A stretch of DNA of 43,199 nucleotides from a virus: the IMG/VR virus record IMGVR_UViG_3300042756_000102; one strand, 5' to 3'. The position numbers and the translations under genes were made by a program. The notes beneath the pieces are model-generated. The model was not told the DNA's origin and ran no database searches. It saw only the letters and a list, made by a program, of their open reading frames with translations. Numbering within the stretch: the first letter of the stretch is position 1; each line of letters opens with the position of its first letter. Of this stretch, positions 1 through 21,946 are shown piece by piece.

Positions 1-127
1 GAGCAGACCACCGATGCCTCCTACCCCAGACTTACTGGAAGTGCTGTTGCGTTCAAGAACCGCAAGGCTATCTTGTTTGATGTCGAGACCAAGATTAAGG
101 CTGACGGCACATTCTACACGCTCTTCC
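1..127. repeat. Terminal redundancy, copy 1. It is identical to 43073-43199 and is probably an assembly overlap of a circular or circularly permuted genome.
   Basis: Direct comparison: GAGCAGACCACCGATGCC...CACGCTCTTCC occurs at both window ends. It is 127 nt long and lies inside an open reading frame. Confidence 0.95.
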
Positions 128-3100
128 ACACGCTTGACTTGGCTGTCATCGAGCAAGAGGCTAACCGCCTTTTCCAGAACACGGAATATAGAAAACTGTT
201 TGACGGAGACAGAGGCGTAATGGAAGCCGACTTCTTCAAGTACCTCAGCAACGCTTCCAAGGCTTCTACAGACCCTAAGAAATTAGACTCTGCTATCCTT
301 CTTGATAAGGGTGACGGACTTGGAGCACAGCGTAGAGATGTCCTTCATCAGATGGGTCGTATGGCTCTCCAGACTGGCGATGCCTATAAGCATCAGCCTA
401 TCGCTGTTATCCCAGAAGGATTCAGACATAGCGTAACTTCCTTTAATATCGATGGTATGACTACCCCCCGTGTCGAGGGTGGTGCTAGGTACGACATCGA
501 CATGAAGAACGCTCACAAGTTCATCCGTGAGAACTGGCAACCCGATGATATGAGACAAGAGAAGACTCCTATTGGCAGAGTCCTTACCCATGATTCTGGA
601 TTCAAGTTTACTCAAGATGCCAGCGGAAGAGTTTCTGCTTACACTAACGATGGTTCTAAGGTAGGTACATTTAGTTCTATCAAGGAAGCCACAACAGCGT
701 CCAAGAACCTTTACAACAAGGCTCAAGAGAACATCCGCAAGATTGCTCAAGTAGCCAAGCAGAAAGAAATTGAGAACAGAAAGAACCTTCAGCCGTTAGA
801 CGAGGCTTTCTACGAGGAAGCGTTCCGTGTTGGTGATATGTTCAAGACCAAGCGGATGCAGGAGATTGTCGGCAACTCTAGGTTAGTCCGTCAGACCTTT
901 GACGAACTGCTTGGTCAGAAAGTTGAAGAAATAAGTAGCGGAAAAAATGAAGCAGAAAAAGGTGCTATTTTAGAACGAATGTTTAACTCTGAATTTAAGG
1001 AGTTAATTGACTTAGAAGCAGAATTACAAAAAGAATATGAACCTCTTCAATTAGAATCAAGACAACTTCAAGAACAAGAAAAAGAAATAATTGGTAGACT
1101 TGCAGAGTTTAGTCAAGAAAAGAAAAGACTTCAACAGTTTAGCGACCCAGATGCTAGAGTTGATGTAGGCATTCTTGAGATGTTTGAGCGTAATTACAGG
1201 AGAAAAGAAGAAGTTAATAAGCGTGTTTCTGAAATAGTAAAAAAACAACATGATGCGGGAATCACAGATTATAGTTCGCATTATTATATGACTAAGCGTT
1301 TCCTTCAAATGTTTAACGAAACAGGAAAACTTAGCGAAGAGGCTATTGCCTTTGCATTAAAGCCGTCATTGATTAAGGCTTACGAGGCTAACTTTGAAAC
1401 AGGAAAGGCTGTTACATTATTGGCTAATCACGGAACGCCTAACCATGAACTCATGGTCAGCAAGACTTTCAACACGGCATTCCTTGGAAGAAACACAGGC
1501 TCTATGTCTGCGTTTAATGCTACCTTCTTTGCTGGCTCTAAAGAGACTTCTCTTGCCTTTGTTGGTGTTCCTTTAGAAAAAACATGGGTCAGAGATTTTA
1601 TACAGGCAAGACCGCATTATGTAAAAGACTTTTCTCCAGAACTTGTGGCTAAGTTAGAATCAATGCTTTCCTCAGACACATCTAAAGGTGTTGTTCAGAA
1701 GGTAAAGTATTTACTGAACAATGCTCACATCGAGTTCCCAGATGATTTCAAGTTAAAAGATACACATAGAAAGACAAAAGAAGGAGAACCTATAATTGCG
1801 TCTCGTCCAGAATCAACACTAGGATATGATATTGATGGATTATTAGACAGGATGCTAGAAAATGCTCAAGACGAAGGTGCTGTGTTTGGCGGCGTAGAAA
1901 CCTACTGGGAAGAAGCAGGAAGAGAACCCTACCTACTTCGTAACATTGTCAAGATGGATAACCCGTATGTCCACGAATACGCTAAGGCTGACTACAGAGA
2001 CGAGACCTTTGCCTCTGTTATTCAGAGGGCTAAAGATGCTGGTCACGATGGTGTTATCTTTAAGAACACCAAGGATGGCGGTGGCTTAGATACAATCTTT
2101 GCTTCCTTCGCCAAGAACGAGGACAACAAGATTTTCACACTTGAGACAACTGAAGACACAAGGTTTGCCCCCAGAGGCAATGACGAGGCTGGCAACAAGG
2201 TCAAGGGAGGCTCTGAGATTGAAGGCAGAAATTTCCAGCCAGACGAACCTATGCCACCCTCTAGAGACCAAGGTTTTAATCGTGTGTATCGCCAGATTTC
2301 TAGAAGCAAGAAAGCGGCTACTCGTAGCATCAAACAATCGTACCTTGATAAATGGGGTATTGATTTAGGAGATTTTGAAAAGTATAAGCAACTTACAGAC
2401 TCTCTTGATAGATTAGAAAGAGATGCAGAAGACGGAAAAGATATTCCAGATTTCATATCTGAAAGAAGAGATTTAAAAAGCGAAATAAGCGACCTCGAAG
2501 ATTTTATGACGGGTCGTATTCAAGAAACTCAAGGTGAGTATGCTCATCAATTTACTGACCAACTTGATGAACTTGAGATTGGAATCAGAAAAATTGATTC
2601 TGTTATTTCTACAATTTCAGAACAGCCGTTAAGCAAAGTTGGAACTTGGTCTGGCACAAACAGACTAGAAGCAGTTCTTACGAGAGAATTAGGTAGTGGT
2701 TTTGCAAGAGAAATAAGTGGAGATGATATAGTTATTGCTGATTCTTTCCGTGAATACGCTCTTGTTAAATATGAACAGGATTATCTTGGTGCGGCTTTTG
2801 AGTCTGAACTCTACAGTTCTGATTACATAATTCCTCAAAAGGGAAATCATCATTACACTATTCCAGCATCTGAAGGTTCTAATAAAAAAGGAATCCTTGT
2901 AGATGTTCTTAGGTCTGAAAATAAACTTACAGAAAAAGGACTTCCTCAAGGTGAGGTTAATCCTCGCAGAATAATCAACGCTCTCAAAAACAAGTCTGGT
3001 GGCGATTCTAAGGTTTACGCTGAGGCTAAGGCTATGGGTCTTATCGACTGGCTTGAATCCAAGCAAGATGGTCAAAAACAAAAGAAAGTCACAACTAAAG

Positions 3101-6100
3101 AATTAATTGATTTCGTTGAGAACAACAAAATGGGACTAGTAATCGACCCGCAGTTAGTTCAATCCGCAGATTTTGGAGACACAAGAGGATATGTCAGCGG
3201 AGGAGAAACACAATCTAGAAACGGATATAGAGTTTTTGTAGTTAGAATGATGAATCAAAAACATCAACATGGCGTTGAAGGACATTTTAATGGTGCTGTT
3301 GTTCACATTAGAGTAACAACCAGAAAATCAAAAGACGGAAAAAAGGTTTTCCACATTGAAGAGATACAGGCTAATAATACGGCTACTGATGTGTTGTCTG
3401 ATAGTCAAAGAGCAGTTGTTACTAAAGAAGTTGAACAACTTAAATTATTTAAAAAAGACTACGAAGCCGCCCTTCTTTATACACAAGCAGAATCATCGGC
3501 ATTAAAATCTCGATTTGGAGCAGGAACAGCAGATTATGCAATTGCTGAAACCGCAAGAGTTAGTAGATGGCAAGTAAACAGAGATAAAATAGCAGGAAAA
3601 TATGCAGAAATTTTGTACGATTTAAATCCAGAACCTCACCAAGAAAGATATGTAGGAATAGGCAGCAAAACAAGAGATGGATATATTTCTGCATTGGCTA
3701 AATCGCTTCCCAATATGCAAATTGATATGTTGGTTTCAGAAAAGACAACAAAACTCAACGCTAAGAAAAACAATGCTCCGCTTCAAGACCCTAAAGAATG
3801 GGTCAAGATTGCTTTTAGAACTGTTCTTCGCAAGGCTTTTGTTGAAGGCGTAGACAGAATTACAATTACTCCGTGGTCTGAGACTCCTTTACAAGTAGGA
3901 ATGAAAAGTAAGTCTGCCGAAAGGTTTTATGGCAAGACCATTACAGATGCGTTTAATTCAGAGTTAGCAAAAATGAACTCTGTTCTTGAGGCTAAAAATA
4001 GTTCTGTTTCAGACAGGCAAAGAAAGATTACTGAAGCAAATGTTAAACTAAACGATTCTATTCAAGAAGTTGCTACGGCTGTTGATGTCAATGCTAATAA
4101 CAATGGTGCTGATATTAAAGTATTGTTTGAATATCTTCATATGTCTGATGCAGACCTTGATAACAGGTTTGGAAGTCAGATGAATACATATATGTCTTCG
4201 CCTTATGAGTTTTTAAAATGGGCTAATTTTGAAACAGAAAAACTTCCTCCAAACTATAAAGGTAAAGATGCTTTAGAAAAAGCAATTTCCAGAAGAGAAG
4301 AAAAACTTCGTTTGTTTGTAGAAGACCAAGGTGCTAACGAAGGATTAAAGACTCCAAGCGGAAGAGATGTTGCGGCTGGTTCTATGTCTGAATCTGAATA
4401 TCTTGTTGACCGAAGCCTTGGTTTTGACCTTACGCCAGAAATGAAAAAGAAGGGGGCTAGACCTCAGCGTATGTTCCAGCCTTCTGAGGGCGGTGCTGAG
4501 GGTGGTCGTGTCTATGACCAGAACAGCCGTGAGTTTAAAACAGGTTTTATTGGCAAATATGCCGAGGAAAACCCAGAGCGTCTTAAAAATAAGAACATAG
4601 AGTTCGTCAAACGCAAAGACGGCTCTTATAGGATTACGCTTACAGATAACTTTGGTACAACTAAAAAGATTGGACACATAACTGCTGACCTTGATATGTC
4701 TGTTAAGGGAGAAGGTGTTGCAGAAATATCCTCCAACATTGACCCAAAATTCAGAGGCAATAAATTGGCTAATGTTTTGTATAGCGAGATGGCAGAACGC
4801 CTTCGTGCGATGGGAGTCAAGTATGTTGATGGCACTATTGTTAACAAAGACGGGATTCCAGTCCAAGTTAGAAACACAATTATTGGTCAGACTTACTTTA
4901 AAGGAAGCAATAAGCCAGCCTCCATGCAGGAAACTGCAAGCAAGGTTCAAGCAGTTCAGTCTGTATATCCAAACAAAGGCATCGGAGTTTACAACGAACT
5001 AGACCCCAAGGCTCGCTATATGCCAGCGGAGGGTGTCAACGCTCCAGTCAACGAAGCAAACAGAAGTTTTATATTAGATACAATAACAGGCAACGACAAC
5101 AGCCGTCGTGCCTTGGAGGAAGGCATGAAGCAAGCCAAGGACAGAAAGCAGAACTTCATAACAATAGATAACATCAACCCAGAGTTGCTTCGTGGCGAGG
5201 CTGTGGTCATGCACTCACCCGACAACGCTGGTGTTGAGCCTGTCCAGATTGGTAGGTTTACTGTCAACCCTAGGGGCGGTATGCGGTTTCCGTCAGAAAA
5301 CCCGACATTAGGTTGGGCTGGCGTTAAGGCTGGTCTTGGTAAACAAATCAACGACAACGGAAACTTTAACGCTGACAGGGGCAAGGGCTGGAGTTCTGGC
5401 GTTGGTCTTATCAAGGGTGACAATGCCAAGATGAAGGGTACGCACATCGGTCTAGAGGTGTTCTTAAGAAACCTCCAGAACTTTACGGACAACGGAGTGC
5501 TTACCGAATCTCAGACAAAGCAGATTCTCAAGAAGGGTCTTGGAGACATTGGTGATATTAAGAGACCCCTTGATACTATCGTTGAAGACATCCTTGTTAA
5601 GAGTTCTAAGCACGAAGGAAGATACACTATTGACGGAAGAAGAAAGGCTGTAGAAAGCATGACGAAAACCGATGGTCACGCTTCCTTGTGGAAGTACCTT
5701 CAGTCTGACCTCACAAAGTTAGAACCTCTTGTTGAAGGGTTTTCCTCTCAAGGTGTCACTAACGCCAATCAGTTCATCAAGGCTATGCTAGAGCCTATGT
5801 ATGAGGCTGTCTCTGACCCGCTCACACGACACGCTAAGGTTGGAGAGGTGTACGGGTATCTGATGTTCAGAAGCCCCGTGACAGAGCCTCCGTCTGATGT
5901 TCACCCTTCATATAAGTATGCCGTCCAGTCAGAAGATGGAGGCAGTCCTGTGCAGTTAGACATCCTATCTACGCCCATGAGTCCTAGGAAGGCATTTACA
6001 AACAGGATTACTGCTGGCGAGGTTTCCCCTCTGCCAGAATCTGAGGCTGGGTTTAAGGTCTCCACGGGTCAAAAACATATCCCTACAATGCGTGGTACAT

Positions 6101-6297
6101 TCATGCCAGCGGAGTTCACGGAGTTCAAGTCTGAGCAGTCTGCCACGGGTCGCATCATGCGTAACGCCAAGGGCTATGTTATCATGTTAGCCAACAATAA
6201 GTTTAGAGTCTATAATCCTTCCAAGGCTATCATCGGTGTCTACGGCAATGAGGAAGAAGCCAAAAAGAGAATCTACAAGGAAATCCCTAAGCGATGA
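1..6297 (+). CDS. C-terminal 2,098 aa of a giant wrap-around ORF (continues from 39836-43072; 3,177 aa in total). Putative ejected internal-virion polyvalent protein, in the position of T7 gp16.
   Basis: Frame 1 is open from base 1, so the TTG 'start' at 73 in the ORF track is an artefact. After removing the 127-nt overlap it is in phase with the ORF that opens at 39836. It is the last and largest of three consecutive internal-protein-like genes after the tail genes, and ends at TGA 6295-6297. Confidence 0.85.
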   Translation, partial: EQTTDASYPRLTGSAVAFKNRKAILFDVETKIKADGTFYTLFHTLDLAVIEQEANRLFQNTEYRKLFDGDRGVMEADFFKYLSNASKASTDPKKLDSAILLDKGDGLGAQRRDVLHQMGRMALQTGDAYKHQPIAVIPEGFRHSVTSFNIDGMTTPRVEGGARYDIDMKNAHKFIRENWQPDDMRQEKTPIGRVLTHDSGFKFTQDASGRVSAYTNDGSKVGTFSSIKEATTASKNLYNKAQENIRKIAQVAKQKEIENRKNLQPLDEAFYEEAFRVGDMFKTKRMQEIVGNSRLVRQTFDELLGQKVEEISSGKNEAEKGAILERMFNSEFKELIDLEAELQKEYEPLQLESRQLQEQEKEIIGRLAEFSQEKKRLQQFSDPDARVDVGILEMFERNYRRKEEVNKRVSEIVKKQHDAGITDYSSHYYMTKRFLQMFNETGKLSEEAIAFALKPSLIKAYEANFETGKAVTLLANHGTPNHELMVSKTFNTAFLGRNTGSMSAFNATFFAGSKETSLAFVGVPLEKTWVRDFIQARPHYVKDFSPELVAKLESMLSSDTSKGVVQKVKYLLNNAHIEFPDDFKLKDTHRKTKEGEPIIASRPESTLGYDIDGLLDRMLENAQDEGAVFGGVETYWEEAGREPYLLRNIVKMDNPYVHEYAKADYRDETFASVIQRAKDAGHDGVIFKNTKDGGGLDTIFASFAKNEDNKIFTLETTEDTRFAPRGNDEAGNKVKGGSEIEGRNFQPDEPMPPSRDQGFNRVYRQISRSKKAATRSIKQSYLDKWGIDLGDFEKYKQLTDSLDRLERDAEDGKDIPDFISERRDLKSEISDLEDFMTGRIQETQGEYAHQFTDQLDELEIGIRKIDSVISTISEQPLSKVGTWSGTNRLEAVLTRELGSGFAREISGDDIVIADSFREYALVKYEQDYLGAAFESELYSSDYIIPQKGNHHYTIPASEGSNKKGILVDVLRSENKLTEKGLPQGEVNPRRIINALKNKSGGDSKVYAEAKAMGLIDWLESKQDGQKQKKVTTKELIDFVENNKMGLVIDPQLVQSADFGDTRGYVSGGETQSRNGYRVFVVRMMNQKHQHGVEGHFNGAVVHIRVTTRKSKDGKKVFHIEEIQANNTATDVLSDSQRAVVTKEVEQLKLFKKDYEAALLYTQAESSALKSRFGAGTADYAIAETARVSRWQVNRDKIAGKYAEILYDLNPEPHQERYVGIGSKTRDGYISALAKSLPNMQIDMLVSEKTTKLNAKKNNAPLQDPKEWVKIAFRTVLRKAFVEGVDRITITPWSETPLQVGMKSKSAERFYGKTITDAFNSELAKMNSVLEAKNSSVSDRQRKITEANVKLNDSIQEVATAVDVNANNNGADIKVLFEYLHMSDADLDNRFGSQMNTYMSSPYEFLKWANFETEKLPPNYKGKDALEKAISRREEKLRLFVEDQGANEGLKTPSGRDVAAGSMSESEYLVDRSLGFDLTPEMKKKGARPQRMFQPSEGGAEGGRVYDQNSREFKTGFIGKYAEENPERLKNKNIEFVKRKDGSYRITLTDNFGTTKKIGHITADLDMSVKGEGVAEISSNIDPKFRGNKLANVLYSEMAERLRAMGVKYVDGTIVNKDGIPVQVRNTIIGQTYFKGSNKPASMQETASKVQAVQSVYPNKGIGVYNELDPKARYMPAEGVNAPVNEANRSFILDTITGNDNSRRALEEGMKQAKDRKQNFITIDNINPELLRGEAVVMHSPDNAGVEPVQIGRFTVNPRGGMRFPSENPTLGWAGVKAGLGKQINDNGNFNADRGKGWSSGVGLIKGDNAKMKGTHIGLEVFLRNLQNFTDNGVLTESQTKQILKKGLGDIGDIKRPLDTIVEDILVKSSKHEGRYTIDGRRKAVESMTKTDGHASLWKYLQSDLTKLEPLVEGFSSQGVTNANQFIKAMLEPMYEAVSDPLTRHAKVGEVYGYLMFRSPVTEPPSDVHPSYKYAVQSEDGGSPVQLDILSTPMSPRKAFTNRITAGEVSPLPESEAGFKVSTGQKHIPTMRGTFMPAEFTEFKSEQSATGRIMRNAKGYVIMLANNKFRVYNPSKAIIGVYGNEEEAKKRIYKEIPKR

Positions 6298-12552: not shown

Positions 12553-13224
12553 TTAGAATGCTTCGTGGTCTCTGGCGGTCAAGACATTTGTATTACCTTT
12601 GCCAAATACTTGCTTGGGTTCAAAGAGACCCTGCCAGCCCTGCTTGATGGACTGCTCGATGCTGGCGATGGACTTGGCTTCACCCCACAGGACGAACTCC
12701 TTGAACTGAGCCTGTACGCTGGAGTCGGTGAGTTTCTTCTTCATCTCCTTGCGATAGGCTACCCAAGACTTCCAAGAAGCAATGAAAGCCTCAGAACCAA
12801 AGGGCAAACATACAATCCATCCGAGTTCTTTCCCTGTATCTTTATCTCCTTTATTATCTTCTTTGTTATATGTAGGCAATTTATTGCCACCCCCCGTGGC
12901 AATATTTTTCCTCCCCCCTAGGCAATTTACTTCCTCCCCAAGAGCCTTTACAACCGCAGTCTTCTCGACAGTTCGGATGACCCTGCGACCATCGACATCG
13001 ACACGGGTAATCAGATTAGCCTCATCGAGTTCCTGTAGGATGTTGCGGATTTGCCTCTCCCCTAGCCCAAGGTGGCGAGATAGGTAGGCGTTAGAGGCAA
13101 AGCACCCGTCATCGTTGTCAAGGGCTTCTACGACCCCGTAGACCACCTTAGCGGTGATGCTGACCTTGGTGGTCTGGAAGACCCCAGCAGGAATCCAGAC
13201 TCCCGTGAATTTAGGTTCGCTCAC
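12553..13224 (-). CDS. Replication initiator/organizer-like protein (winged HTH plus a DnaD-like C-terminus).
   Basis: The wHTH segment is SNAYLSRHLGLGERQIRNILQELDEANLITRV. The C-terminus is W/K-rich (WKSWVAYRKEMKKKL). The start is set at GTG 13224, which forms a GTGA overlap with the exonuclease stop; ATG 13281 is the alternative. Confidence 0.55.
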   Translation of the reverse strand: MSEPKFTGVWIPAGVFQTTKVSITAKVVYGVVEALDNDDGCFASNAYLSRHLGLGERQIRNILQELDEANLITRVDVDGRRVIRTVEKTAVVKALGEEVNCLGGRKNIATGGGNKLPTYNKEDNKGDKDTGKELGWIVCLPFGSEAFIASWKSWVAYRKEMKKKLTDSSVQAQFKEFVLWGEAKSIASIEQSIKQGWQGLFEPKQVFGKGNTNVLTARDHEAF

Positions 13225-14072
13225 AGGGATAGTTCGATGACCTCGTCCGAGTACGCCTTCCAGATTCCAGAGGAGGTACACGCACCGAACTCGATGACCA
13301 AGTCTTCCCAGCGTCCAGCGGACTTCAGCAGGGACTCAGCGGAAATAGAATAACAAGCCACGGCAAAGGGTGGCTTCTTCTCCACACAGATAAAATTAAA
13401 CTGATTTACAGGCTTGCCAGCGTTCTGGAGCAACCAGCCATATTGCACATCTTGGAAATCATAACGCCTGTCCCAGATTGCTCGCTTGAAGCCTTCGGGA
13501 CTAGCATCTTCACAGGTCTTGATGTCGTTTACGAAACCACGCTTGGAATCGTAAGCATCAATTAATCCCTTCAGACGCACATCGCCATAGGGCGTGGGGT
13601 AAGTGCCGAACACAGGCAACTCTTTGTAATCAGACTCAGCCAGCAGGACGCAAGCCTTGGGGTGGGCGATGACGCTGGAACGCATCGAGAACAGTTGGGC
13701 TTCCTGTTCCACATTGATAATGAACTTGCCAGCGTTCTCGATAGCGAACTGCTCATTGTAGGTCTTTCCCTCTTTAGACCGACCATCCACTTTGAGTTTA
13801 ACAGCGTAGAGTTCCTTAGCCTTGTCGGGCTGGAGCAAGAGAGCGTGGAAAACAGAACCCAGAATCATTGCGTCCGTGGGTTCGTGCTGTTCCTCCGTGG
13901 AGGCGAGGTAGTGGGCTGGAGACTTGTGGAAAATCTTCAGCGAGGACTGCGAGAGTCCGATTGCTTTGCGGTAGTCGGCTTCAGTCATTCCTGCACAGAA
14001 TGCAGGGTCAGAGCCTTGAGCGAGGTTGTGGTTCATCCCCGACACAGAATCAAATGGTAATACGCCTGTCAA
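13221..14072 (-). CDS. PD-(D/E)XK exonuclease (RecE/YqaJ/Cas4-like recombination nuclease).
   Basis: Core motif GLIDAYDSKRGFVNDIKTCED is followed by YDFQDVQY (D ... D-x-K ... Q-x-x-Y). It lies in the same operon as the ERF annealase. Confidence 0.8.
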   Translation of the reverse strand: MTGVLPFDSVSGMNHNLAQGSDPAFCAGMTEADYRKAIGLSQSSLKIFHKSPAHYLASTEEQHEPTDAMILGSVFHALLLQPDKAKELYAVKLKVDGRSKEGKTYNEQFAIENAGKFIINVEQEAQLFSMRSSVIAHPKACVLLAESDYKELPVFGTYPTPYGDVRLKGLIDAYDSKRGFVNDIKTCEDASPEGFKRAIWDRRYDFQDVQYGWLLQNAGKPVNQFNFICVEKKPPFAVACYSISAESLLKSAGRWEDLVIEFGACTSSGIWKAYSDEVIELSL

Positions 14073-17133: not shown

Positions 17134-17544
17134 TTACTCGACCTTGAACTTGAGGGTCTTCAGCACCTTGATGACGATAGCCTTGAGTTCCTCCGTGTCA
17201 CCGAAGGAAGCCTTGTCCATATCGTCAACGACCTCCTTGACCTTTTCGGTCAAGTCGATGTCTTCGACAGCGGACTCGACAGCGTCAGAAACCTTGCTTT
17301 CGATTTCGTCATCCACATAGGACTGAGTGGCGATATCGTTGTCGTTAATGTAGGATTCGATTCGGTCGTTAACATCATCCTCACGGACGAAGTCATCGGC
17401 ATCGAAATCGGGAATCTCCATTTCATCGACCTTCTCAGTCAGTTCAGCGAGGGACTTTTTCAGTTCCTCGTTTTCCTTCTTGAGACGCACGACCTCAGCG
17501 ACCAGCGTGTTCAGACCCAGCAGTTTCATAATCCAGTTTTTCAT
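17134..17544 (-). CDS. Highly acidic coiled-coil protein (136 aa), the first gene of the leftward early operon.
   Basis: By my count about 38 of 136 residues are D/E against about 18 K/R. The N-terminus is a leucine-zipper-like helix (LVAEVVRLKKENEELKKSLAELTEKV). The start is set at ATG 17544, behind a CA-rich leader. Confidence 0.65.
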   Translation of the reverse strand: MKNWIMKLLGLNTLVAEVVRLKKENEELKKSLAELTEKVDEMEIPDFDADDFVREDDVNDRIESYINDNDIATQSYVDDEIESKVSDAVESAVEDIDLTEKVKEVVDDMDKASFGDTEELKAIVIKVLKTLKFKVE

Positions 17545-17579
17545 ATCGGTTTTTTGTTTTTGGTTTTTGGTATCCCCCT

Positions 17580-17595
17580 CCCGCAAGATTGCGGG
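17580..17595 (-). promoter_or_regulatory. Hairpin at the 5' side of the leftward leader.
   Basis: CCCGC-AAGATT-GCGGG, followed on the minus strand by GAGGGGGATACCAAAAACCAAAAACAAAAAACCGATATG. Confidence 0.5.
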
Positions 17596-17740
17596 TTTAG
17601 GGAAAGTAGACTAAGAAAGAGCGAGCGAGGTCTGTCACACCCTGCACCTATGAATGAATAGACTTTTTACAGAAGAGCAACGCCTTTTATCAAGACCCTA
17701 TACGCAGTAGCATTGCTAATACCATATATAAGTTTCTCTC

Positions 17741-17775
17741 AGATTATAATATTATAATAGAATTATAAAAGAGAC
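17741..17775. repeat. AT-rich tandem ATTATAAT/ATTATAAA triplet.
   Basis: GATTATAATATTATAATAGAATTATAAAAG: multiple TATAAT-like hexamers, which could be a DNA-unwinding or promoter element. Confidence 0.6.
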
Positions 17776-17816
17776 GCTCGGATTCCTGTTTTGAATTCCC
17801 GAATCCTGTTAACCTA

Positions 17817-17826
17817 ACCTATGATT
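17817..17826. repeat. Inverted copy of the AATCATAGGT 10-mer.
   Basis: ACCTATGATT is the reverse complement of the 10-mer repeated at 18118, 18150 and 18190. Confidence 0.7.
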
Positions 17827-17875
17827 CCGTAATTAGAAAACAGGTAGCAGGCAGCGTGCCAAGTCCCTATACATA

Positions 17876-17902
17876 ATTGTAAATAAAGTGTAAAAATGTA
17901 AA
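17876..17902 (-). promoter_or_regulatory. Cluster of TTTACA boxes (the minus strand reads TTTACATT-TTTACAC-N5-TTTACAAT).
   Basis: The plus strand reads ATTGTAAATAAAGTGTAAAAATGTAAA. Confidence 0.45.
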
Positions 17903-17914
17903 GAGCCTCTACAA

Positions 17915-17949
17915 TCGATTCTAAGGGGGGTATGGCAAGACCCTATACC
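17915..17949 (+). repeat. 35-bp direct repeat, copy A.
   Basis: TCGATTCTAAGGGGGGTATGGCAAGACCCTATACC, against copy B at 18277-18311: 32 of 35 identical, with the first 20 nt exact. It has internal dyad symmetry, GGTAT...ATACC. Confidence 0.85.
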
Positions 17950-18000
17950 TTCCCCTAGGCTGACCCTTGCAAGAGCCTTGTAGGGCAACTGTGCAAGAAG

Positions 18001-18017
18001 TTGTAAAGCGTTGTAAA
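18001..18017 (-). promoter_or_regulatory. Tandem TTTACAA boxes.
   Basis: The plus strand reads TTGTAAAGCGTTGTAAA (10-nt period). Confidence 0.4.
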
Positions 18018-18117
18018 TCAACGACTTACAGAGGTAGGTGAACAGATGTTCAATCAAGCACAAAACAGGGGGTCAGATACTGGTATAAGCAATCCTAATG
18101 ACCCGTGTAGAATCTCT

Positions 18118-18199
18118 AATCATAGGTCTGTCAAGGGGTATTCGGGTCGAATCATAGGTCGCTCGCCTCGGATTCAAATCCAATCTTGTAATCATAGGT
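18118..18199 (+). repeat. Three direct copies of the 10-mer AATCATAGGT (iteron-like).
   Basis: Exact copies at 18118-18127, 18150-18159 and 18190-18199. Confidence 0.8.
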
Positions 18200-18234
18200 A
18201 AGGATATAATGTATCAACCATATACCAATCATAT

Positions 18235-18253
18235 AATGTAAAACAATTGTAAA
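18235..18253 (-). promoter_or_regulatory. Bipartite TTTACAAT-N3-TTTACATT motif.
   Basis: The minus strand reads TTTACAATTGTTTTACATT. Confidence 0.5.
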
Positions 18254-18276
18254 AATGCGATTAGACCCCTCTGGCT

Positions 18277-18311
18277 TCGATTCTAAGGGGGGTATGTAAA
18301 GAGCCTATACC
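18277..18311 (+). repeat. 35-bp direct repeat, copy B.
   Basis: TCGATTCTAAGGGGGGTATGTAAAGAGCCTATACC. Confidence 0.85.
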
Positions 18312-18823
18312 GTAGCATGGACTTTCGTGGATTCGGGCATATGCCTATAAATGTGCAAAGAATCTTGGCACGCTCTCTGCTATGCGTGGGCGTGCGTTCA
18401 CTCCCAAGGCGAAGGGTCGCTGGATAAAATGCAGATTCCCGAAAATAGTTCTTGAATCAGTAATACGCTGGTCTACCTTCTAGGTCTGTTCTTCGTCACT
18501 CGGTTCTCTCCTCCCGCCCTGCGGGATGGTCGCACCAGATGCTGGCAACTCGCCAGCCAGCCAGATGCGTAAAGATTCGATACAGAACTCGGTTCATTGA
18601 AATTCTACTGTAGGAAGCCCCAGCCCCAGAAGGGCATCGGCATTAATTCCTAAACGACAATCCAGCGTGTGCTAGGCTGATATATTCCCCGCACGATGGC
18701 AGACATTCAGAAACCTAGAAACCTACGGGTCAGAGATTCTAGATTCGTGAATCAACAAAAGGACGAAACACGGGGGTAGGTGAAAATCCCACCCCCTTGT
18801 CTAGTGGTTATACCACTACTGAC

Positions 18824-18843
18824 GAGTCCGCAGTTACGGACTC
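18824..18843 (+). promoter_or_regulatory. Hairpin with a CAGTTA loop at the 5' side of the rightward CA-rich leader.
   Basis: GAGTCCG-CAGTTA-CGGACTC (7-bp stem). Two further hairpins precede it: GGGGGT...ACCCCC at about 18772-18796 and TAGTGG-TTATA-CCACTA at 18801-18817. Confidence 0.6.
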
Positions 18844-18881
18844 AAAACCCAAAACCAAAATACCAAATACCAAAACCGCAT

Positions 18882-19748
18882 ATGAAAAATCAAACCGCAG
18901 AAATCACGGAGGGCAAGGTGACGAACAATCCCTTCTACCTCGTCACGCAGGAACGCCTCCACCTCCCCGATGGTACGCCCACCCCGTTCTACGGCAATGT
19001 CCGCAAGGACACGGGTGTGTGCCTCAAGGCTGTCACGGAACGCTACACCATCGTGCAGAACCAAGACCTCATCGAGAAGGCTGAATCCATCTTCGACACG
19101 AAGGGGATGAAGTTCACTCGCAATTGCGAAATCACGCAGGACGGCTCTCGGATGTACGCCAACTACACCTTCGCCAATCACGGCTTCAAGGTGCAGAAGG
19201 ATGACTTCCAGATGCGTGTCTCGCTTCGTAATTCGTTCGACGGCTCGATGAAAATCTCGCTGGTCGTGGGATTGATGCGGGTCGTGTGCAGTAACGGAGC
19301 GTGGTCGATGGATGGCGGTATCGACTTGATGCGTAAGCATACTGCTTCCGTGGATGTCGAGTTCGCCTCCAACGCAGTCGATGTCGCTTGCCGTAGTTTC
19401 CAGTCGCAGTACGAAACGCTCGACCTGTTCAGTCGCACGAAACTCAATCAGCAGGAAGGTCACGAACTGCTGAACGGGCTGGTGAAGCGTAGCGTTCTCG
19501 CTGACCGTGTCGCTGACAAGGTTCGTGAAATCTGGGAGAAGCCGACCTACGAGGAAGACCGCACTCGCAATGTGTACAACCTCTGGAACGCCATCACCCA
19601 GCACACCACGCACGACATCGCTGGTGAACGCAGGAAGGTGGAACTCGCCACCCGCCTGTCCACCAACGCCACGATGACGCTGGCTGACTTCGCCCGCAAG
19701 GGACGCATCAGCGACCTGTTCGTCAAGGAACTCCAGAAGAACAACTAA
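18882..19748 (+). CDS. DUF932-family protein (288 aa from ATG 18882).
   Basis: MRVSLRNSFDGSMKISLVVGLMRVVCSNGA matches the DUF932 core (N-S-x-D-G-S ... G-x-x-R-x-V-C-x-N-G). The upstream 34 codons of the tracked ORF cover the hairpins and the CA-rich leader. Confidence 0.8.
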   Translation: MKNQTAEITEGKVTNNPFYLVTQERLHLPDGTPTPFYGNVRKDTGVCLKAVTERYTIVQNQDLIEKAESIFDTKGMKFTRNCEITQDGSRMYANYTFANHGFKVQKDDFQMRVSLRNSFDGSMKISLVVGLMRVVCSNGAWSMDGGIDLMRKHTASVDVEFASNAVDVACRSFQSQYETLDLFSRTKLNQQEGHELLNGLVKRSVLADRVADKVREIWEKPTYEEDRTRNVYNLWNAITQHTTHDIAGERRKVELATRLSTNATMTLADFARKGRISDLFVKELQKNN

Positions 19749-21196: not shown

Positions 21197-21225
21197 CCAC
21201 CCCGTGTAGCGTCCTTGCCCCCTCA

Positions 21226-21268
21226 AGCCCACCCTGTGCCTAACCAGCCTTGGTGGGCTTTCTTGTTT
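21226..21268 (+). terminator. Intrinsic terminator ending the 18882-21196 module.
   Basis: AGCCCACC (21226-21233) pairs with GGTGGGCT (21252-21259), followed by TTCTTGTTT. Confidence 0.6.
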
Positions 21269-21431
21269 AGTGATTAGCCCGCCTCCACGCCCCTCTGAGC
21301 CTGTATTAATCCTTTGCCTATACCCTAGCCTACCCCAGCCCATCAAAGGGCTTCCTAGGGCATCCCAGACCCCTTCCCCGACTACTGAACACCCGTTCAC
21401 CTACCTGTTCCAGCCAATCCAATCCCCTGCT

Positions 21432-21452
21432 TTTACAATCCTTTTACATTTG
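21432..21452 (+). promoter_or_regulatory. Bipartite TTTACAAT-N3-TTTACATTTG motif oriented rightward (toward the tRNAs and late genes).
   Basis: TTTACAATCCTTTTACATTTG. Its 3' half, TACATTTG, fits the Bacteroidota -7 consensus TAnnTTTG. Confidence 0.5.
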
Positions 21453-21532
21453 TGAATCAATTGTTAATTTCTTTTACTTCGGATGGGTAACCACCTACAG
21501 GCTACATTCTATAAGAAGGCTTATATAATATT

Positions 21533-21595
21533 CTTTTAGGTTTATATAATAATCTTTTTACCTTTTATAATAAAGTCTTTTAGGTTTATAATAAT
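21533..21595 (+). repeat. AT-rich direct repeat CTTTTAGGTTTATA(TA)ATAAT, two copies.
   Basis: Copies at 21533-21553 and 21577-21595, differing by a TA indel, embedded in TATAAT-rich sequence. Confidence 0.75.
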
Positions 21596-21824
21596 CCCCT
21601 TCCCCTACGGGGGGGCGGGGGTCTTTATCTTTTCGCTAGACTCCTATTTATACCCATCCAGACAGATACTTTTTTTATACTAAAAAGCATCACTAAGACT
21701 TGAAGCGACTACTGGTAGGAGCGTCAGGGGGTTATTAGGGGGTTTCAAAGGTCTTCAGTCAAGGAGCAACTTGTGAACGATACTGTTTACCTACGAAGAG
21801 TTAGTGCTTGACACAAGGATAAGT

Positions 21825-21890
21825 AAATCCCTTAACAATCCCTGCTGTTCACCCCCTCAGTCCCCCAATTCTGGGGGAAGGGATTTTTTA
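21825..21890 (+). terminator. Nested hairpin with a T-run upstream of the tRNA cluster.
   Basis: Inner stem TCCCCCA-ATTC-TGGGGGA (21861-21878). The outer stem pairs AAATCCCT (21825-21832) with AGGGATTT (21879-21886), followed by TTTTATTT. Confidence 0.5.
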
Positions 21891-21946
21891 TTTCTCTGTT
21901 GACTCTGGTTCTCTCTGGGAAGATAACAAGTGCGTTCTTTGACTTT

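What the first reader, a model, noticed from the sequence alone, without database searches (positions are those of the whole stretch)
17545..18881. A 1.3-kb ORF-free divergent control region holds at least five repeat families
In an otherwise tightly packed genome, 17545-18881 has no credible ORF. It contains:
1. A 35-bp direct repeat at 17915-17949 and 18277-18311, 32 of 35 identical, with an internal GGTAT...ATACC dyad.
2. The 10-mer AATCATAGGT, three times direct (18118, 18150, 18190) and once inverted (17817).
3. CCTATAC, five times on the plus strand in non-coding DNA: four here (about 17697, 17865, 17943, 18304) and a fifth in the other large non-coding region (about 21318).
4. A tandem ATTATAAT triplet at 17741-17775.
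5. By-eye counts of 16 GATTC/GAATC pentamers between 17781 and 18753, against roughly 2 expected. That is 18 GANTC sites in total across 17781-18845.
6. Direct repeats CCAGATGC (18534 and 18562), AAACCTA x2 and AGATTC x2 (18709-18746), plus several GC hairpins (CCCGC-CCT-GCGGG at about 18514, GCTGGC-AACTC-GCCAGC at about 18541).

This density suggests a replication origin with iterons and an unwinding element, a partition or packaging site, a multi-operator genetic switch, and/or a long structured RNA. The GANTC enrichment could mean methylation-sensitive control.
Basis: seen in the sequence. Interest (0 to 1): 0.7.

Follow-up and report, generated by a model that had tools for sequence, protein, structure and literature searches.

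The report
Phage control region with hammerhead ribozyme
The 1.3-kb gene-free gap is best read as the phage's two-way transcription control region: it holds two outward-facing sigma-54-type promoter motifs around repeat-rich DNA, and a well-supported self-cleaving hammerhead ribozyme that should cut the rightward transcript just before its first gene.

Summary
17545-18881 is non-coding, its repeat families are real, and GAWTC is enriched about six-fold (16 sites against 2.3-2.9 expected; 0 of 2000 shuffles reach 16).

1. A type II hammerhead ribozyme lies at 18761-18829 on the + strand, with predicted cleavage after C18801, 80 nt before the DUF932 gene. Its catalytic core is perfect. It is present in every relative with enough upstream sequence (18 distinct versions). 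Of the paired cells, 99.6% form standard pairs and 31 carry compensatory double changes. Rfam does not detect it.

2. The only two perfect TGGCAY-N5-YTGCW (sigma-54 -24/-12) matches in the 43-kb genome lie here. They face outward, at 17846-17861 (-) and 18366-18381 (+). The same pair recurs in relatives, 470-611 bp apart, with invariant cores and variable spacers. Most repeats lie between the two motifs, at enhancer-like distances.

A lambda-like iteron origin lies elsewhere, at 12842-12939 inside the initiator gene, so the origin reading is unlikely.

The hammerhead is near certain as a structure. The sigma-54 reading is a prediction: the host, the activator and the transcription starts are unknown.

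Verdict: a new combination of known kinds of element, moderately interesting.

The parts
17134..17544 (-). Left flanking gene pA (136 aa, coiled-coil-like, unknown function); first gene of the leftward operon
   Evidence: ORF with an ATG at 17544. Only weak ZapB-like coiled-coil hits. Homologs in L003-L009 keep the same position.
17545..17573 (-). C/A-rich translation leader of pA without a Shine-Dalgarno sequence; mirrors the pB leader
   Evidence: Inverted repeats I2/I7 with 18858-18889. TRF array 17548-17571. No gene in the window has a Shine-Dalgarno sequence.
17580..17595 (-). Conserved hairpin in the leftward leader (CCCGC-loop-GCGGG on the mRNA strand)
   Evidence: The third stem pair changes C-G to U-A to A-U in L007 and L009, and L008 has a different GC stem (alignment).
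17741..17775 (.). AT-rich near-palindrome (ATTATAAT x2 plus ATTATAAA) in the leftward leader, about 60-95 nt after the predicted start
   Evidence: (I5). Conserved in all relatives except L008, and duplicated in L002, L004 and L005. A related AT-rich tandem repeat lies at 21517-21595.
17846..17861 (-). P_L: sigma-54-type -24/-12 promoter motif TGGCACGCTGCCTGCT; predicted start near 17835, towards pA
   Evidence: One of only two zero-mismatch matches in the window. The motif is found in the relatives that hold this part of the gap, except L008, L023, L025 and L030, with a variable N5 spacer.
17906..17958 (.). Direct-repeat copy 1 with the dyad CTAAGGGGGGTAT-N11-ATACCTTCCCCTAG, centred about 100 bp upstream of the P_L start; candidate activator site
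   Evidence: D1-D3. A dyad is kept in a different sequence form in L021, L035 and L036. The role is inferred from position only.
18039..18052 (.). Palindrome TGAACA-GA-TGTTCA in the centre of the inter-promoter DNA
   Evidence: Present, with a one-base variant in four of them, in 10 of 16 aligned relatives; absent in the L007 group.
18118..18199 (.). Three direct AATCATAGGT repeats (18118, 18150, 18190); an inverted fourth copy at 17817-17826 lies in the leftward leader
   Evidence: the only four copies in the window. Conserved in the close group and replaced by AATCCTG-type repeats in others.
18204..18311 (.). Most conserved block of the inter-promoter DNA. It holds phased TGTAAA A-tracts, a short palindrome (18261-18274) and GATTCTAAGGGGGGTAT (direct-repeat copy 2), about 80-190 bp upstream of the P_R start; candidate enhancer
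   Evidence: GGGGGGTAT is invariant in all 16 aligned relatives, and the neighbouring TGTAAAAATG block is nearly so. TGTAAA occurs 8 times on + and once on - in the gap, at 8-11 bp spacing. The function is inferred.
18366..18381 (+). P_R: sigma-54-type -24/-12 promoter motif TGGCACGCTCTCTGCT; predicted start near 18392, towards the ribozyme and pB
   Evidence: In the L007 group the -12 element is the full consensus TTGCT.
18392..18744 (+). Rightward untranslated leader. It contains hairpins at 18513-18525 and 18541-18557, and a stretch (18560-18760) almost identical in 7 relatives
   Evidence: The distance from P_R to the ribozyme varies from 155 to 395 nt, and the leader is mosaic among relatives. 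Compensatory changes occur in the 18541-18557 hairpin. Fold z-score -1.8. No Rfam match.
18745..18839 (+). Type II hammerhead ribozyme domain. From 5' to 3':
- outer helix 18745-18750 with 18834-18839
- stem II GGAC 18761-18764 with GUCC 18826-18829
- G12-A14 (GAA) 18765-18767
- stem III hairpin 18768-18800
- cleavage after C18801
- stem I hairpin 18802-18818
- CUGACGA 18819-18825
18843..18881 (+). C/A-rich translation leader of pB without a Shine-Dalgarno sequence
   Evidence: TRF arrays 18843-18877; mirror image of the pA leader (I2/I7/I8).
18882..19748 (+). Right flanking gene pB (DUF932, 288 aa); first gene of the rightward operon
   Evidence: Pfam PF06067, E 2.5e-21. Homologs at 33-96% identity are always preceded by the hammerhead where upstream sequence exists.

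Best explanation
The gap is the divergent transcription control region of a roughly 43-kb phage whose genes lack Shine-Dalgarno sequences, which suggests, but does not show, a Bacteroidota-like host.

Two sigma-54-type (-24/-12) promoter motifs face outward. P_L (17846-17861, minus strand) would drive pA and the recombination/replication operon. P_R (18366-18381, plus strand) would drive the DUF932 operon.

The roughly 500 bp between them holds most of the repeat families: a duplicated unit of about 75 bp with dyads about 100 bp upstream of each predicted start, phased TGTAAA A-tracts, the AATCATAGGT repeats and a palindrome. I read this DNA as enhancer and architectural sites for an activator that is not encoded by the phage proteins scanned.

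Each promoter is followed by a long untranslated leader, about 290 nt leftward and about 490 nt rightward, and both leaders carry conserved GC hairpins.

The rightward leader ends in a type II hammerhead ribozyme. It should cleave itself after C18801. That would release a leader RNA of about 410 nt ending in a 2',3'-cyclic phosphate. It would leave the operon mRNA with a 5'-hydroxyl, a 5' hairpin (stem I) and an 80-nt C/A-rich leader.

What is shown: the non-coding status, the repeats, the ribozyme core and its helices with covariation, and the conservation pattern of the two promoter motifs.

What is inferred: actual cleavage, use of host sigma-54, the transcription starts, the enhancer role of the repeats, and what the processing does for the mRNA.
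For: Hammerhead
- All core positions are invariant in 18 distinct sequences: CUGANGA, GAA, the A15.1-U16.1 pair, and H17 as C (17 sequences) or A (1).
- For 13 pairs of stems I, II and III, 99.6% of cells form standard pairs, against 27-44% when the partners are slid.
- 31 cells carry changes on both sides; 0 of 500 shuffles reach this.
- The distal part of stem III differs in sequence between relatives but always folds as a hairpin.
- An outer helix between the flanks averages 5.1 bp against 3.9 in shuffles (0 of 200 shuffles reach it).
- The domain folds with z = -3.0.
- It sits at the same place, upstream of the DUF932 gene, in every relative with enough upstream sequence.
- 28 of 30 IMG/VR pattern hits are well-formed type II hammerheads of the same build in other phage contigs.

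Promoters
- The only two zero-mismatch matches in the window both lie in the gap and face the flanking genes. Shuffles give 0.30 matches on average, and 3 of 100 shuffles give two or more.
- Relatives carry the same divergent pair 470-611 bp apart.
- 35 distinct instances have invariant TTGGCA and TGCT with a variable spacer.
- The gap holds no Bacteroidetes-type TAnnTTTG box and only one weak sigma-70-like hit.

Origin lies elsewhere.

Sigma-54 is reported to drive chaperone genes in Bacteroidota (PMC12316311).
Against: - No enhancer-binding protein (Sigma54_activat domain) was found among the phage proteins scanned. Many small ORFs were not scanned.
- The host is unknown. Neither genome scan identified a host: the protein scan found no relative, and the hammerhead-pattern hits in bacterial genomes were unrelated. 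Some phyla lack sigma-54.
- The within-window statistic for the promoter motif is modest on its own (3 of 100 shuffles).
- Positions -36 to -26 upstream of both motifs are also conserved (TGTAAAGRGAC). This is not typical of sigma-54 promoters and could mean recognition by another factor.
- An activator-dependent promoter would be an unusual choice for the first genes a phage expresses.
- Rfam's Hammerhead_II model does not report this ribozyme even at E = 10. It also scores clear type II hammerheads in L083 below its own threshold (25.1 and 21.9 bits against 37).
- Self-cleavage was not tested.
Confidence: 0.6

Rival explanations
1. The two conserved motifs of about 30 nt (TGTAAAGRGAC-TTGGCAYG-N4-YTGCTA) are promoters or operators read by a phage-specific factor, such as a phage sigma factor, RNA polymerase or early regulator. 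They are not read by host sigma-54. The rest of the architecture (leaders, hammerhead) stays the same.
For: Conservation extends upstream of the -24 element, and related half-motifs (GTATAGGGNCTT, TGTAAAGAGCC) recur 4-5 times in the gap. No activator gene was found. A 2074-aa protein has no known family.
Against: Only two full copies exist in the genome, none of them before the late genes. The conserved positions are exactly the sigma-54 contact positions, at exact spacing. The 2074-aa protein lacks a DxDGD motif, and no polymerase or sigma domain was found.
Confidence: 0.15
2. The main product is a functional non-coding RNA. On this reading the rightward leader of about 410 nt, released by the hammerhead with a defined 3' end, acts in trans or as a sensor, and the ribozyme exists to make its 3' end rather than to trim the mRNA.
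For: 18560-18760 is nearly identical in 7 relatives that differ by 10-20% elsewhere. Hairpins with compensatory changes occur in the leader, and a loop motif GAUAUAUUCCCCG is shared with L033.
Against: The leader is replaced by unrelated sequence of 155-321 nt in other relatives that keep the promoter motif and the ribozyme. The fold z-score is only -1.8. There is no Rfam match.
Confidence: 0.12
3. The gap is, or contains, a replication origin with iterons and an AT-rich unwinding element (17741-17775).
For: Many repeats and an AT-rich near-palindrome. The cumulative GC skew peaks near 16-17.5 kb.
Against: A textbook lambda-type array (three 23-bp iterons at 12874-12939 next to an AT-rich 12-mer repeat) lies inside the O-like initiator gene, next to a DnaC-like loader gene. 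The repeats in the gap are dispersed, of several kinds and irregularly spaced. The skew change coincides with the switch in gene orientation.
Confidence: 0.06
4. The roughly 500-bp segment between the inverted TTGGCAC...CTGCT arms is an invertible switch, or the GANTC sites mediate methylation-dependent control.
For: A 37-nt imperfect inverted repeat flanks the segment (I1). GANTC is enriched.
Against: The arms share only the -24/-12 positions, and their spacers differ within each genome. All 16 distinct relatives have the segment in the same orientation. No recombinase or methyltransferase was found among the proteins scanned. L017 and L029 lack the GAWTC enrichment.
Confidence: 0.04

Closest known systems
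Type II hammerhead ribozymes of bacteria and phages (Perreault et al. 2011, PMC3088659; Rfam RF02276)
   Same: The catalytic core is identical. The cleavage triplet is GUC (or GUA). [quoted passage not shown] The element lies in phage DNA just upstream of a gene, which fits the proposal in that paper that phage transcripts are processed. Many IMG/VR phage contigs carry the same build.
   Different: There is no pseudoknot between loop I and the 3' tail, which that paper reports for most type II examples. Instead, an outer helix closes an internal loop beyond stem II. Stem III is long (24-33 nt). RF02276 does not report it. The site is fixed: downstream of a sigma-54-type motif and upstream of a DUF932 gene.
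Enhancer-dependent sigma-54 promoters (consensus TGGCAC-N5-TTGCW; e.g. glnAp2, pspA)
   Same: The -24 GG and -12 GC elements are present at exact spacing. The conservation pattern fits. Dyad and repeat elements lie about 80-190 bp upstream. Phased A-tracts could bend the DNA.
   Different: The context is a phage genome, with no activator gene nearby. Two promoters sit back to back around shared upstream DNA. There is extra conservation at -36 to -26. Nothing has been tested experimentally.
Lambda PL/PR early region with nutL/nutR leaders
   Same: Divergent promoters launch a recombination/replication arm and a second arm. Both have long leaders that carry similar hairpins.
   Different: The promoter type differs. 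About 500 bp of non-coding DNA separates the promoters, rather than repressor genes and operators. No N-like or repressor protein has been identified. A ribozyme sits in one leader.

Membership tests
Hammerhead ribozyme | Conserved core: C3 U4 G5 A6 N7 G8 A9, G12 A13 A14, the A15.1-U16.1 pair, and H17 not G | tested here: met
   Invariant in 18 of 18 distinct sequences. N7 is U, C or A. H17 is C (17) or A (1).
Hammerhead ribozyme | Three helices radiating from the core, supported by covariation | tested here: met
   99.6% of cells are paired. 6 pairs and 31 cells have changes on both sides; 0 of 500 shuffles reach this. Slid controls give 27-44% paired. The distal part of stem III always forms a hairpin.
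Hammerhead ribozyme, type II | Stems I and III closed by loops; stem II open (the permuted order GAAA - III - UH - I - CUGANGA) | tested here: met
   The order of elements at 18761-18829 and in all relatives.
Hammerhead ribozyme, type II | Pseudoknot between loop I and the 3' tail (common, not obligatory; about 40% of hammerheads overall, PMC3088659) | tested here: not met
   Best loop-to-tail helix is 3.2 bp against 3.3 bp in shuffles. An outer helix between the flanks is present instead.
Hammerhead ribozyme, type II | Match to the curated model RF02276 | tested here: not met
   No hit at E up to 10. The same model gives only 25.1 and 21.9 bits (threshold 37) to clear type II hammerheads in L083, so this test has low sensitivity here.
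Hammerhead ribozyme | Site-specific self-cleavage giving 2',3'-cyclic phosphate and 5'-OH ends | not testable with these tools
   Needs in vitro transcription or end-specific RNA sequencing.
Sigma-54-dependent promoter | -24 TGGCAC and -12 TTGCW elements with GG and GC at fixed spacing | tested here: met
   TGGCACGCTGCCTGCT on the minus strand and TGGCACGCTCTCTGCT on the plus strand. These are the only zero-mismatch hits in the window.
Sigma-54-dependent promoter | Conservation confined to the two elements, with a free spacer, across relatives | tested here: met
   35 distinct instances: TTGGCA and TGCT are invariant and the spacer varies. There is additional unexpected conservation at -36 to -26.
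Sigma-54-dependent promoter | Upstream activator sites and a cognate AAA+ enhancer-binding protein | tested here: inconclusive
   Dyads and repeats lie 80-190 bp upstream. No Sigma54_activat domain was found in the phage proteins scanned. A host activator cannot be examined.
Sigma-54-dependent promoter | The host encodes sigma-54; transcription starts about 12 nt after the GC and depends on rpoN | not testable with these tools
   The host was not identified. The leaders without Shine-Dalgarno sequences only suggest Bacteroidota.
Iteron-type replication origin | Tandem iterons of one kind at regular spacing, next to an AT-rich stretch and linked to the initiator | tested here: not met
   The repeats in the gap are dispersed and of several kinds. 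A proper array lies at 12842-12939 inside the initiator gene.
Invertible DNA switch | Near-identical inverted repeats, a recombinase, and both orientations observed | tested here: not met
   The arms are 73% complementary and share only the promoter positions. Only one orientation is seen in 16 relatives. No recombinase was found among the proteins scanned.

The most novel reading that the evidence does not exclude
Both early operons of this phage lineage are launched from enhancer-dependent sigma-54 promoters. The start of infection would then be gated by a host AAA+ activator, for example the sigma-54-driven chaperone/stress regulon reported in Bacteroidota. A hammerhead ribozyme then removes the long promoter-proximal leader to produce a translatable mRNA with a 5'-hydroxyl end. 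This would be a phage developmental switch built on sigma-54 plus a ribozyme, rather than on repressors and sigma-70 promoters.
Probability: 0.3. Interest if true: 0.75.

Novelty: new variant of a known kind. Interest (0 to 1): 0.55.

Why it matters
**Annotation.** The result turns an unexplained repeat-rich gap into a testable map: two predicted transcription starts, a candidate enhancer, and one exact RNA cleavage site.

**The ribozyme.** The hammerhead is a well-supported example with a fixed genetic context, the 5' UTR of a DUF932 operon. That makes the long-open question of what phage hammerheads do directly testable in one system. It also shows that the current Rfam type II model misses a whole clade.

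**The promoters.** If the sigma-54 reading holds, it would be an unusual case of a phage tying its main divergent promoters to an activator-dependent host sigma factor. My two literature searches on this point found no precedent, but they were narrow.

Tried and rejected
- **Stop-codon reassignment** as the reason for the missing ORFs: rejected, because every frame has all three stop types.
- **Similarity to known phages:** none by DNA. The capsid protein is at most 33% identical to cultured phages, which says nothing about the host.
- **Rfam,** at gathering and at relaxed thresholds: only tRNAs and chance hits.
- **Host identification through prophage relatives in 185,000 genomes:** no DUF932 relative. 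The hammerhead pattern found only unrelated type II hammerheads, in Actinomycetota and Sphingomonadaceae genomes.
- **A third sigma-54-like match in relatives:** it lies inside a tRNA gene and was discarded.
- **Bacteroidetes-type promoter boxes (TAnnTTTG):** none in the gap and no enrichment in the genome.
- **A sigma-70 scan:** one weak hit, fewer than in shuffles.
- **A phage-encoded activator, sigma factor or RNA polymerase:** not found in about 45 proteins scanned.
- **Small ORFs in the leader** (for example the 24-codon ORF at 18526): rejected because of a lost start codon and a frameshift in relatives.
- **A pseudoknot between loop I and the 3' tail:** not supported.
- **Literature searches** for phage sigma-54 promoters and for DUF932 with ribozymes: nothing relevant.
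Full report
**Setting.** The window looks like a complete phage genome of about 43 kb.
- It has an SU10-type capsid protein, a large terminase subunit and five tRNA genes.
- Its leftward arm encodes an endonuclease VII, an exonuclease, an O-like replication initiator, a DnaC-like loader and an Erf recombinase.
- It has no DNA match among 50,697 deposited phages.
- No gene is preceded by a Shine-Dalgarno sequence. Start codons follow A/C-rich leaders. This suggests, but does not show, a Bacteroidota-like host.
- The finding lies between two divergent genes: pA (17134-17544, minus strand, 136 aa, unknown function) and pB (18882-19748, plus strand, DUF932).

**The observation.** It is correct.
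- Only short ORFs overlap the gap. All six frames carry all three stop codon types. The short ORFs are not preserved in relatives.
- The 35-bp repeat is part of a duplicated unit of about 75 bp.
- All four AATCATAGGT copies in the genome are in the gap.
- GAWTC occurs 16 times in 1065 bp, against 2.3 in dinucleotide shuffles and 2.9 from the density of the rest of the genome. None of 2000 shuffles reaches 16.

**Relatives.** Searches with pA and pB recovered about 35 loci from IMG/VR and from freshwater, estuarine and other metagenomes.
- All those that span the junction keep a gap of 1.2-1.8 kb between the two genes, even where pB is only 33-43% identical.
- The gap is mosaic. Blocks at 80-93% identity alternate with replaced blocks.

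**A hammerhead ribozyme.** The alignment of the gaps showed the hammerhead core on the plus strand.
- The order of elements is GGAC-GAA-A...U-C, then a hairpin, then CUGACGA-GUCC, at 18761-18829. This is the type II arrangement: stems I and III closed by loops, stem II open.
- Eighteen distinct versions were collected. Every core position is invariant. N7 is U, C or A. The cleavage-site nucleotide is C in 17 and A in one.
- On an alignment of the 18 sequences, 13 pairs of stems I, II and III form standard pairs in 99.6% of cells, against 27-44% when the partners are slid. Six pairs and 31 cells carry changes on both sides, and none of 500 shuffles reaches that.
- The distal part of stem III differs in sequence and length but always folds as a hairpin.
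- The flanks form an additional outer helix of different sequence in different relatives (UCGUGA/UUACGG here; GAAUC/GAUUC, GGAAUC/GAUUCC or UCUAA/UUAGA elsewhere). It averages 5.1 bp against 3.9 in shuffles.
- The pseudoknot between loop I and the 3' tail, described for most type II hammerheads (PMC3088659), is not supported here.
- The 95-nt domain folds with a z-score of -3.0.
- Predicted cleavage is between C18801 and U18802, 80 nt before the pB start codon.
- In every relative the ribozyme lies between P_R and the first gene of the rightward operon. L003 and L004 have an extra small ORF after it.

**Why Rfam is silent.** Rfam 15 reports nothing here, even at E = 10 on a 111-nt stretch. The same library gives only 25.1 and 21.9 bits, against a threshold of 37, to two clear type II hammerheads in a Sphingomonadaceae genome. 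Its silence is therefore a sensitivity problem, not evidence against the ribozyme.

**How common this build is.** A pattern scan of IMG/VR returned 30 stretches. Twenty-eight are well-formed type II hammerheads of the same build, most of them in unrelated phage contigs with no DUF932 gene and no sigma-54 motif nearby. The ribozyme is therefore a new member of a common phage class. Its fixed context is specific to this lineage.

**Two sigma-54-type promoter motifs.**
- The 37-nt inverted repeat reported by the repeat finder (I1) is two copies of TTGGCACG-N4-CTGCTA facing outward.
- A scan with TGGCAY-N5-YTGCW finds exactly two zero-mismatch matches in the window, at 17846-17861 (minus strand) and 18366-18381 (plus strand). 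Shuffles give 0.30 on average, and 3 of 100 shuffles give two or more.
- That statistic is modest on its own. But both sites lie in the 3% of the genome that is this gap, and each points at a flanking gene.
- Relatives carry the same divergent pair 470-611 bp apart.
- In 35 distinct instances TTGGCA and TGCT are invariant, while the spacer between them varies. This is the pattern expected for the -24 and -12 contacts of sigma-54.
- A third match seen in some relatives lies inside a tRNA gene and was discarded.
- The predicted starts are near 17835 and 18392.
- The gap holds no Bacteroidetes-type TAnnTTTG box and only one weak sigma-70-like hit.
- Caveats:
  - Positions -36 to -26 are also conserved (TGTAAAGRGAC), which is not typical of sigma-54 promoters.
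  - No enhancer-binding protein was found in the phage proteins scanned.
  - The host is unknown.
- A 2025 survey reports sigma-54-dependent chaperone genes in Bacteroidota (PMC12316311). That makes such a host plausible but proves nothing here.

**Where the repeats fall on this map.** Most lie in the 504 bp between the two motifs.
- The two copies of the duplicated unit are centred about 100 bp upstream of each predicted start. Copy 1 is a dyad (CTAAGGGGGGTAT-N11-ATACCTTCCCCTAG).
- Block 18204-18311 is the most conserved part of the inter-promoter DNA in all 16 aligned relatives.
- TGTAAA occurs eight times on the plus strand at 8-11 bp spacing, which would give phased A-tracts.
- These positions and forms fit activator sites and bent DNA upstream of enhancer-dependent promoters. 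That is an inference from geometry only.
- The CCTATAC family is the reverse complement of GTATAGGGNCTT, the sequence just upstream of the P_L -24 element. Its other copies carry degenerate -24 boxes.
- The mirror-image G/T-rich and C/A-rich repeats at the two ends of the gap are the translation leaders of pA and pB.
- Several GAWTC sites lie in conserved DNA elements, and in relatives some form the outer helix of the ribozyme. Two relatives keep everything else without the enrichment. I leave the enrichment only partly explained.

**Leaders.** The leftward leader is about 290 nt. It carries the AT-rich near-palindrome and a hairpin with compensatory changes. The rightward leader before the ribozyme varies from 155 to 395 nt and is replaced wholesale in some relatives. 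One 200-nt stretch is nearly invariant in seven relatives, and some of the hairpins covary. Whole-leader folding is only modestly better than for shuffles.

**Rivals.**
- A replication origin is unlikely. Three 23-bp iterons next to an AT-rich repeat lie inside the O-like initiator gene at 12842-12939, as in lambda.
- An invertible switch is unlikely. The arms share only the promoter positions, and all relatives have the same orientation.
- Methylation control has no support beyond the enrichment itself.
- A phage-specific transcription factor reading the extended motif remains a real alternative (about 0.15).
- So does the idea that the released leader is itself the functional product (about 0.12).

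**Verdict.** The region is best explained as a divergent control region built from two sigma-54-type promoter motifs, enhancer-like repeats, long leaders and a hammerhead ribozyme that processes the rightward transcript.
- The ribozyme as a structure is close to certain. Its cleavage and its purpose are inferred.
- I put the sigma-54 reading at about 0.6.
- Each element is of a known kind. The combination and its phage context are new to me and were not found in the literature searches run here.

Noticed in passing
window 12842-12939: Three tandem 23-bp iterons (AGGCAATTTATTTCCTCCCCCCG) next to a 12-bp AT-rich repeat, inside the O-like replication initiator gene (12553-13281, minus strand). 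This is a lambda-type origin candidate.
   Followed up: partly
window 21200-21946: A second non-coding region shares motif families with the finding. It has CCTATACC...CCCTAG at 21318, three TTTTACA (reverse complement of TGTAAAA) at 21432-21480, a 3.6-copy 21-bp AT-rich tandem repeat (TTATATAATAATCTTTT) at 21517-21595, and one TAnnTTTG box at 21445. It has no sigma-54 motif and no hammerhead. It lies just upstream of the tRNA array and the late genes.
   Followed up: partly
window 73-6297: A 2074-aa ORF with clearly lower GC (0.37-0.40 against about 0.48), no Pfam or PHROG match and no DxDGD polymerase motif. It may run off the start of the window.
   Followed up: partly
L083 4778-4833 and 5017-5072; L076 7850-7906: Clear type II hammerheads in bacterial genomes: two in tandem in a Sphingomonadaceae MAG, and others in Actinomycetota MAGs. 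The two L083 copies score below Rfam RF02276's gathering threshold (25.1 and 21.9 bits against 37); L076 gave no match at gathering thresholds. The curated model misses this common build.
   Followed up: partly
L124-L149 (IMG/VR contigs): 28 of 30 pattern hits are well-formed type II hammerheads. Most of them are in phage contigs unrelated to this lineage, and some contigs carry two (L144; L132 with L149; L126 with L140).
   Followed up: no
L004 about 5660-5945 (also L003): An extra ORF of about 95 aa is inserted between the hammerhead and the DUF932 gene in this relative. The ribozyme stays at the head of the operon.
   Followed up: no
window 18261-18274 compared with L009-type relatives: A 14-bp near-palindrome just upstream of GATTCTAAGGGGGGTAT appears inverted between relatives (TTAGACCCCTCTGG against CCTAGGGGTCTAGG).
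   Followed up: no
L038-L074: Distant DUF932 homologs (20-32% identity) occur on contigs that include roughly 45-96-kb human-gut and rumen assemblies, possibly large gut phages. None has a convincing hammerhead.
   Followed up: no
L007-type relatives, centre of the inter-promoter region (aligned to window about 18080): An additional near-sigma-54 motif, TTGGCACGAAAGGTGCTTGC (-12 element GTGC), points rightward in the L007, L017, L018, L032 and L033 group. It is absent from the window.
   Followed up: no
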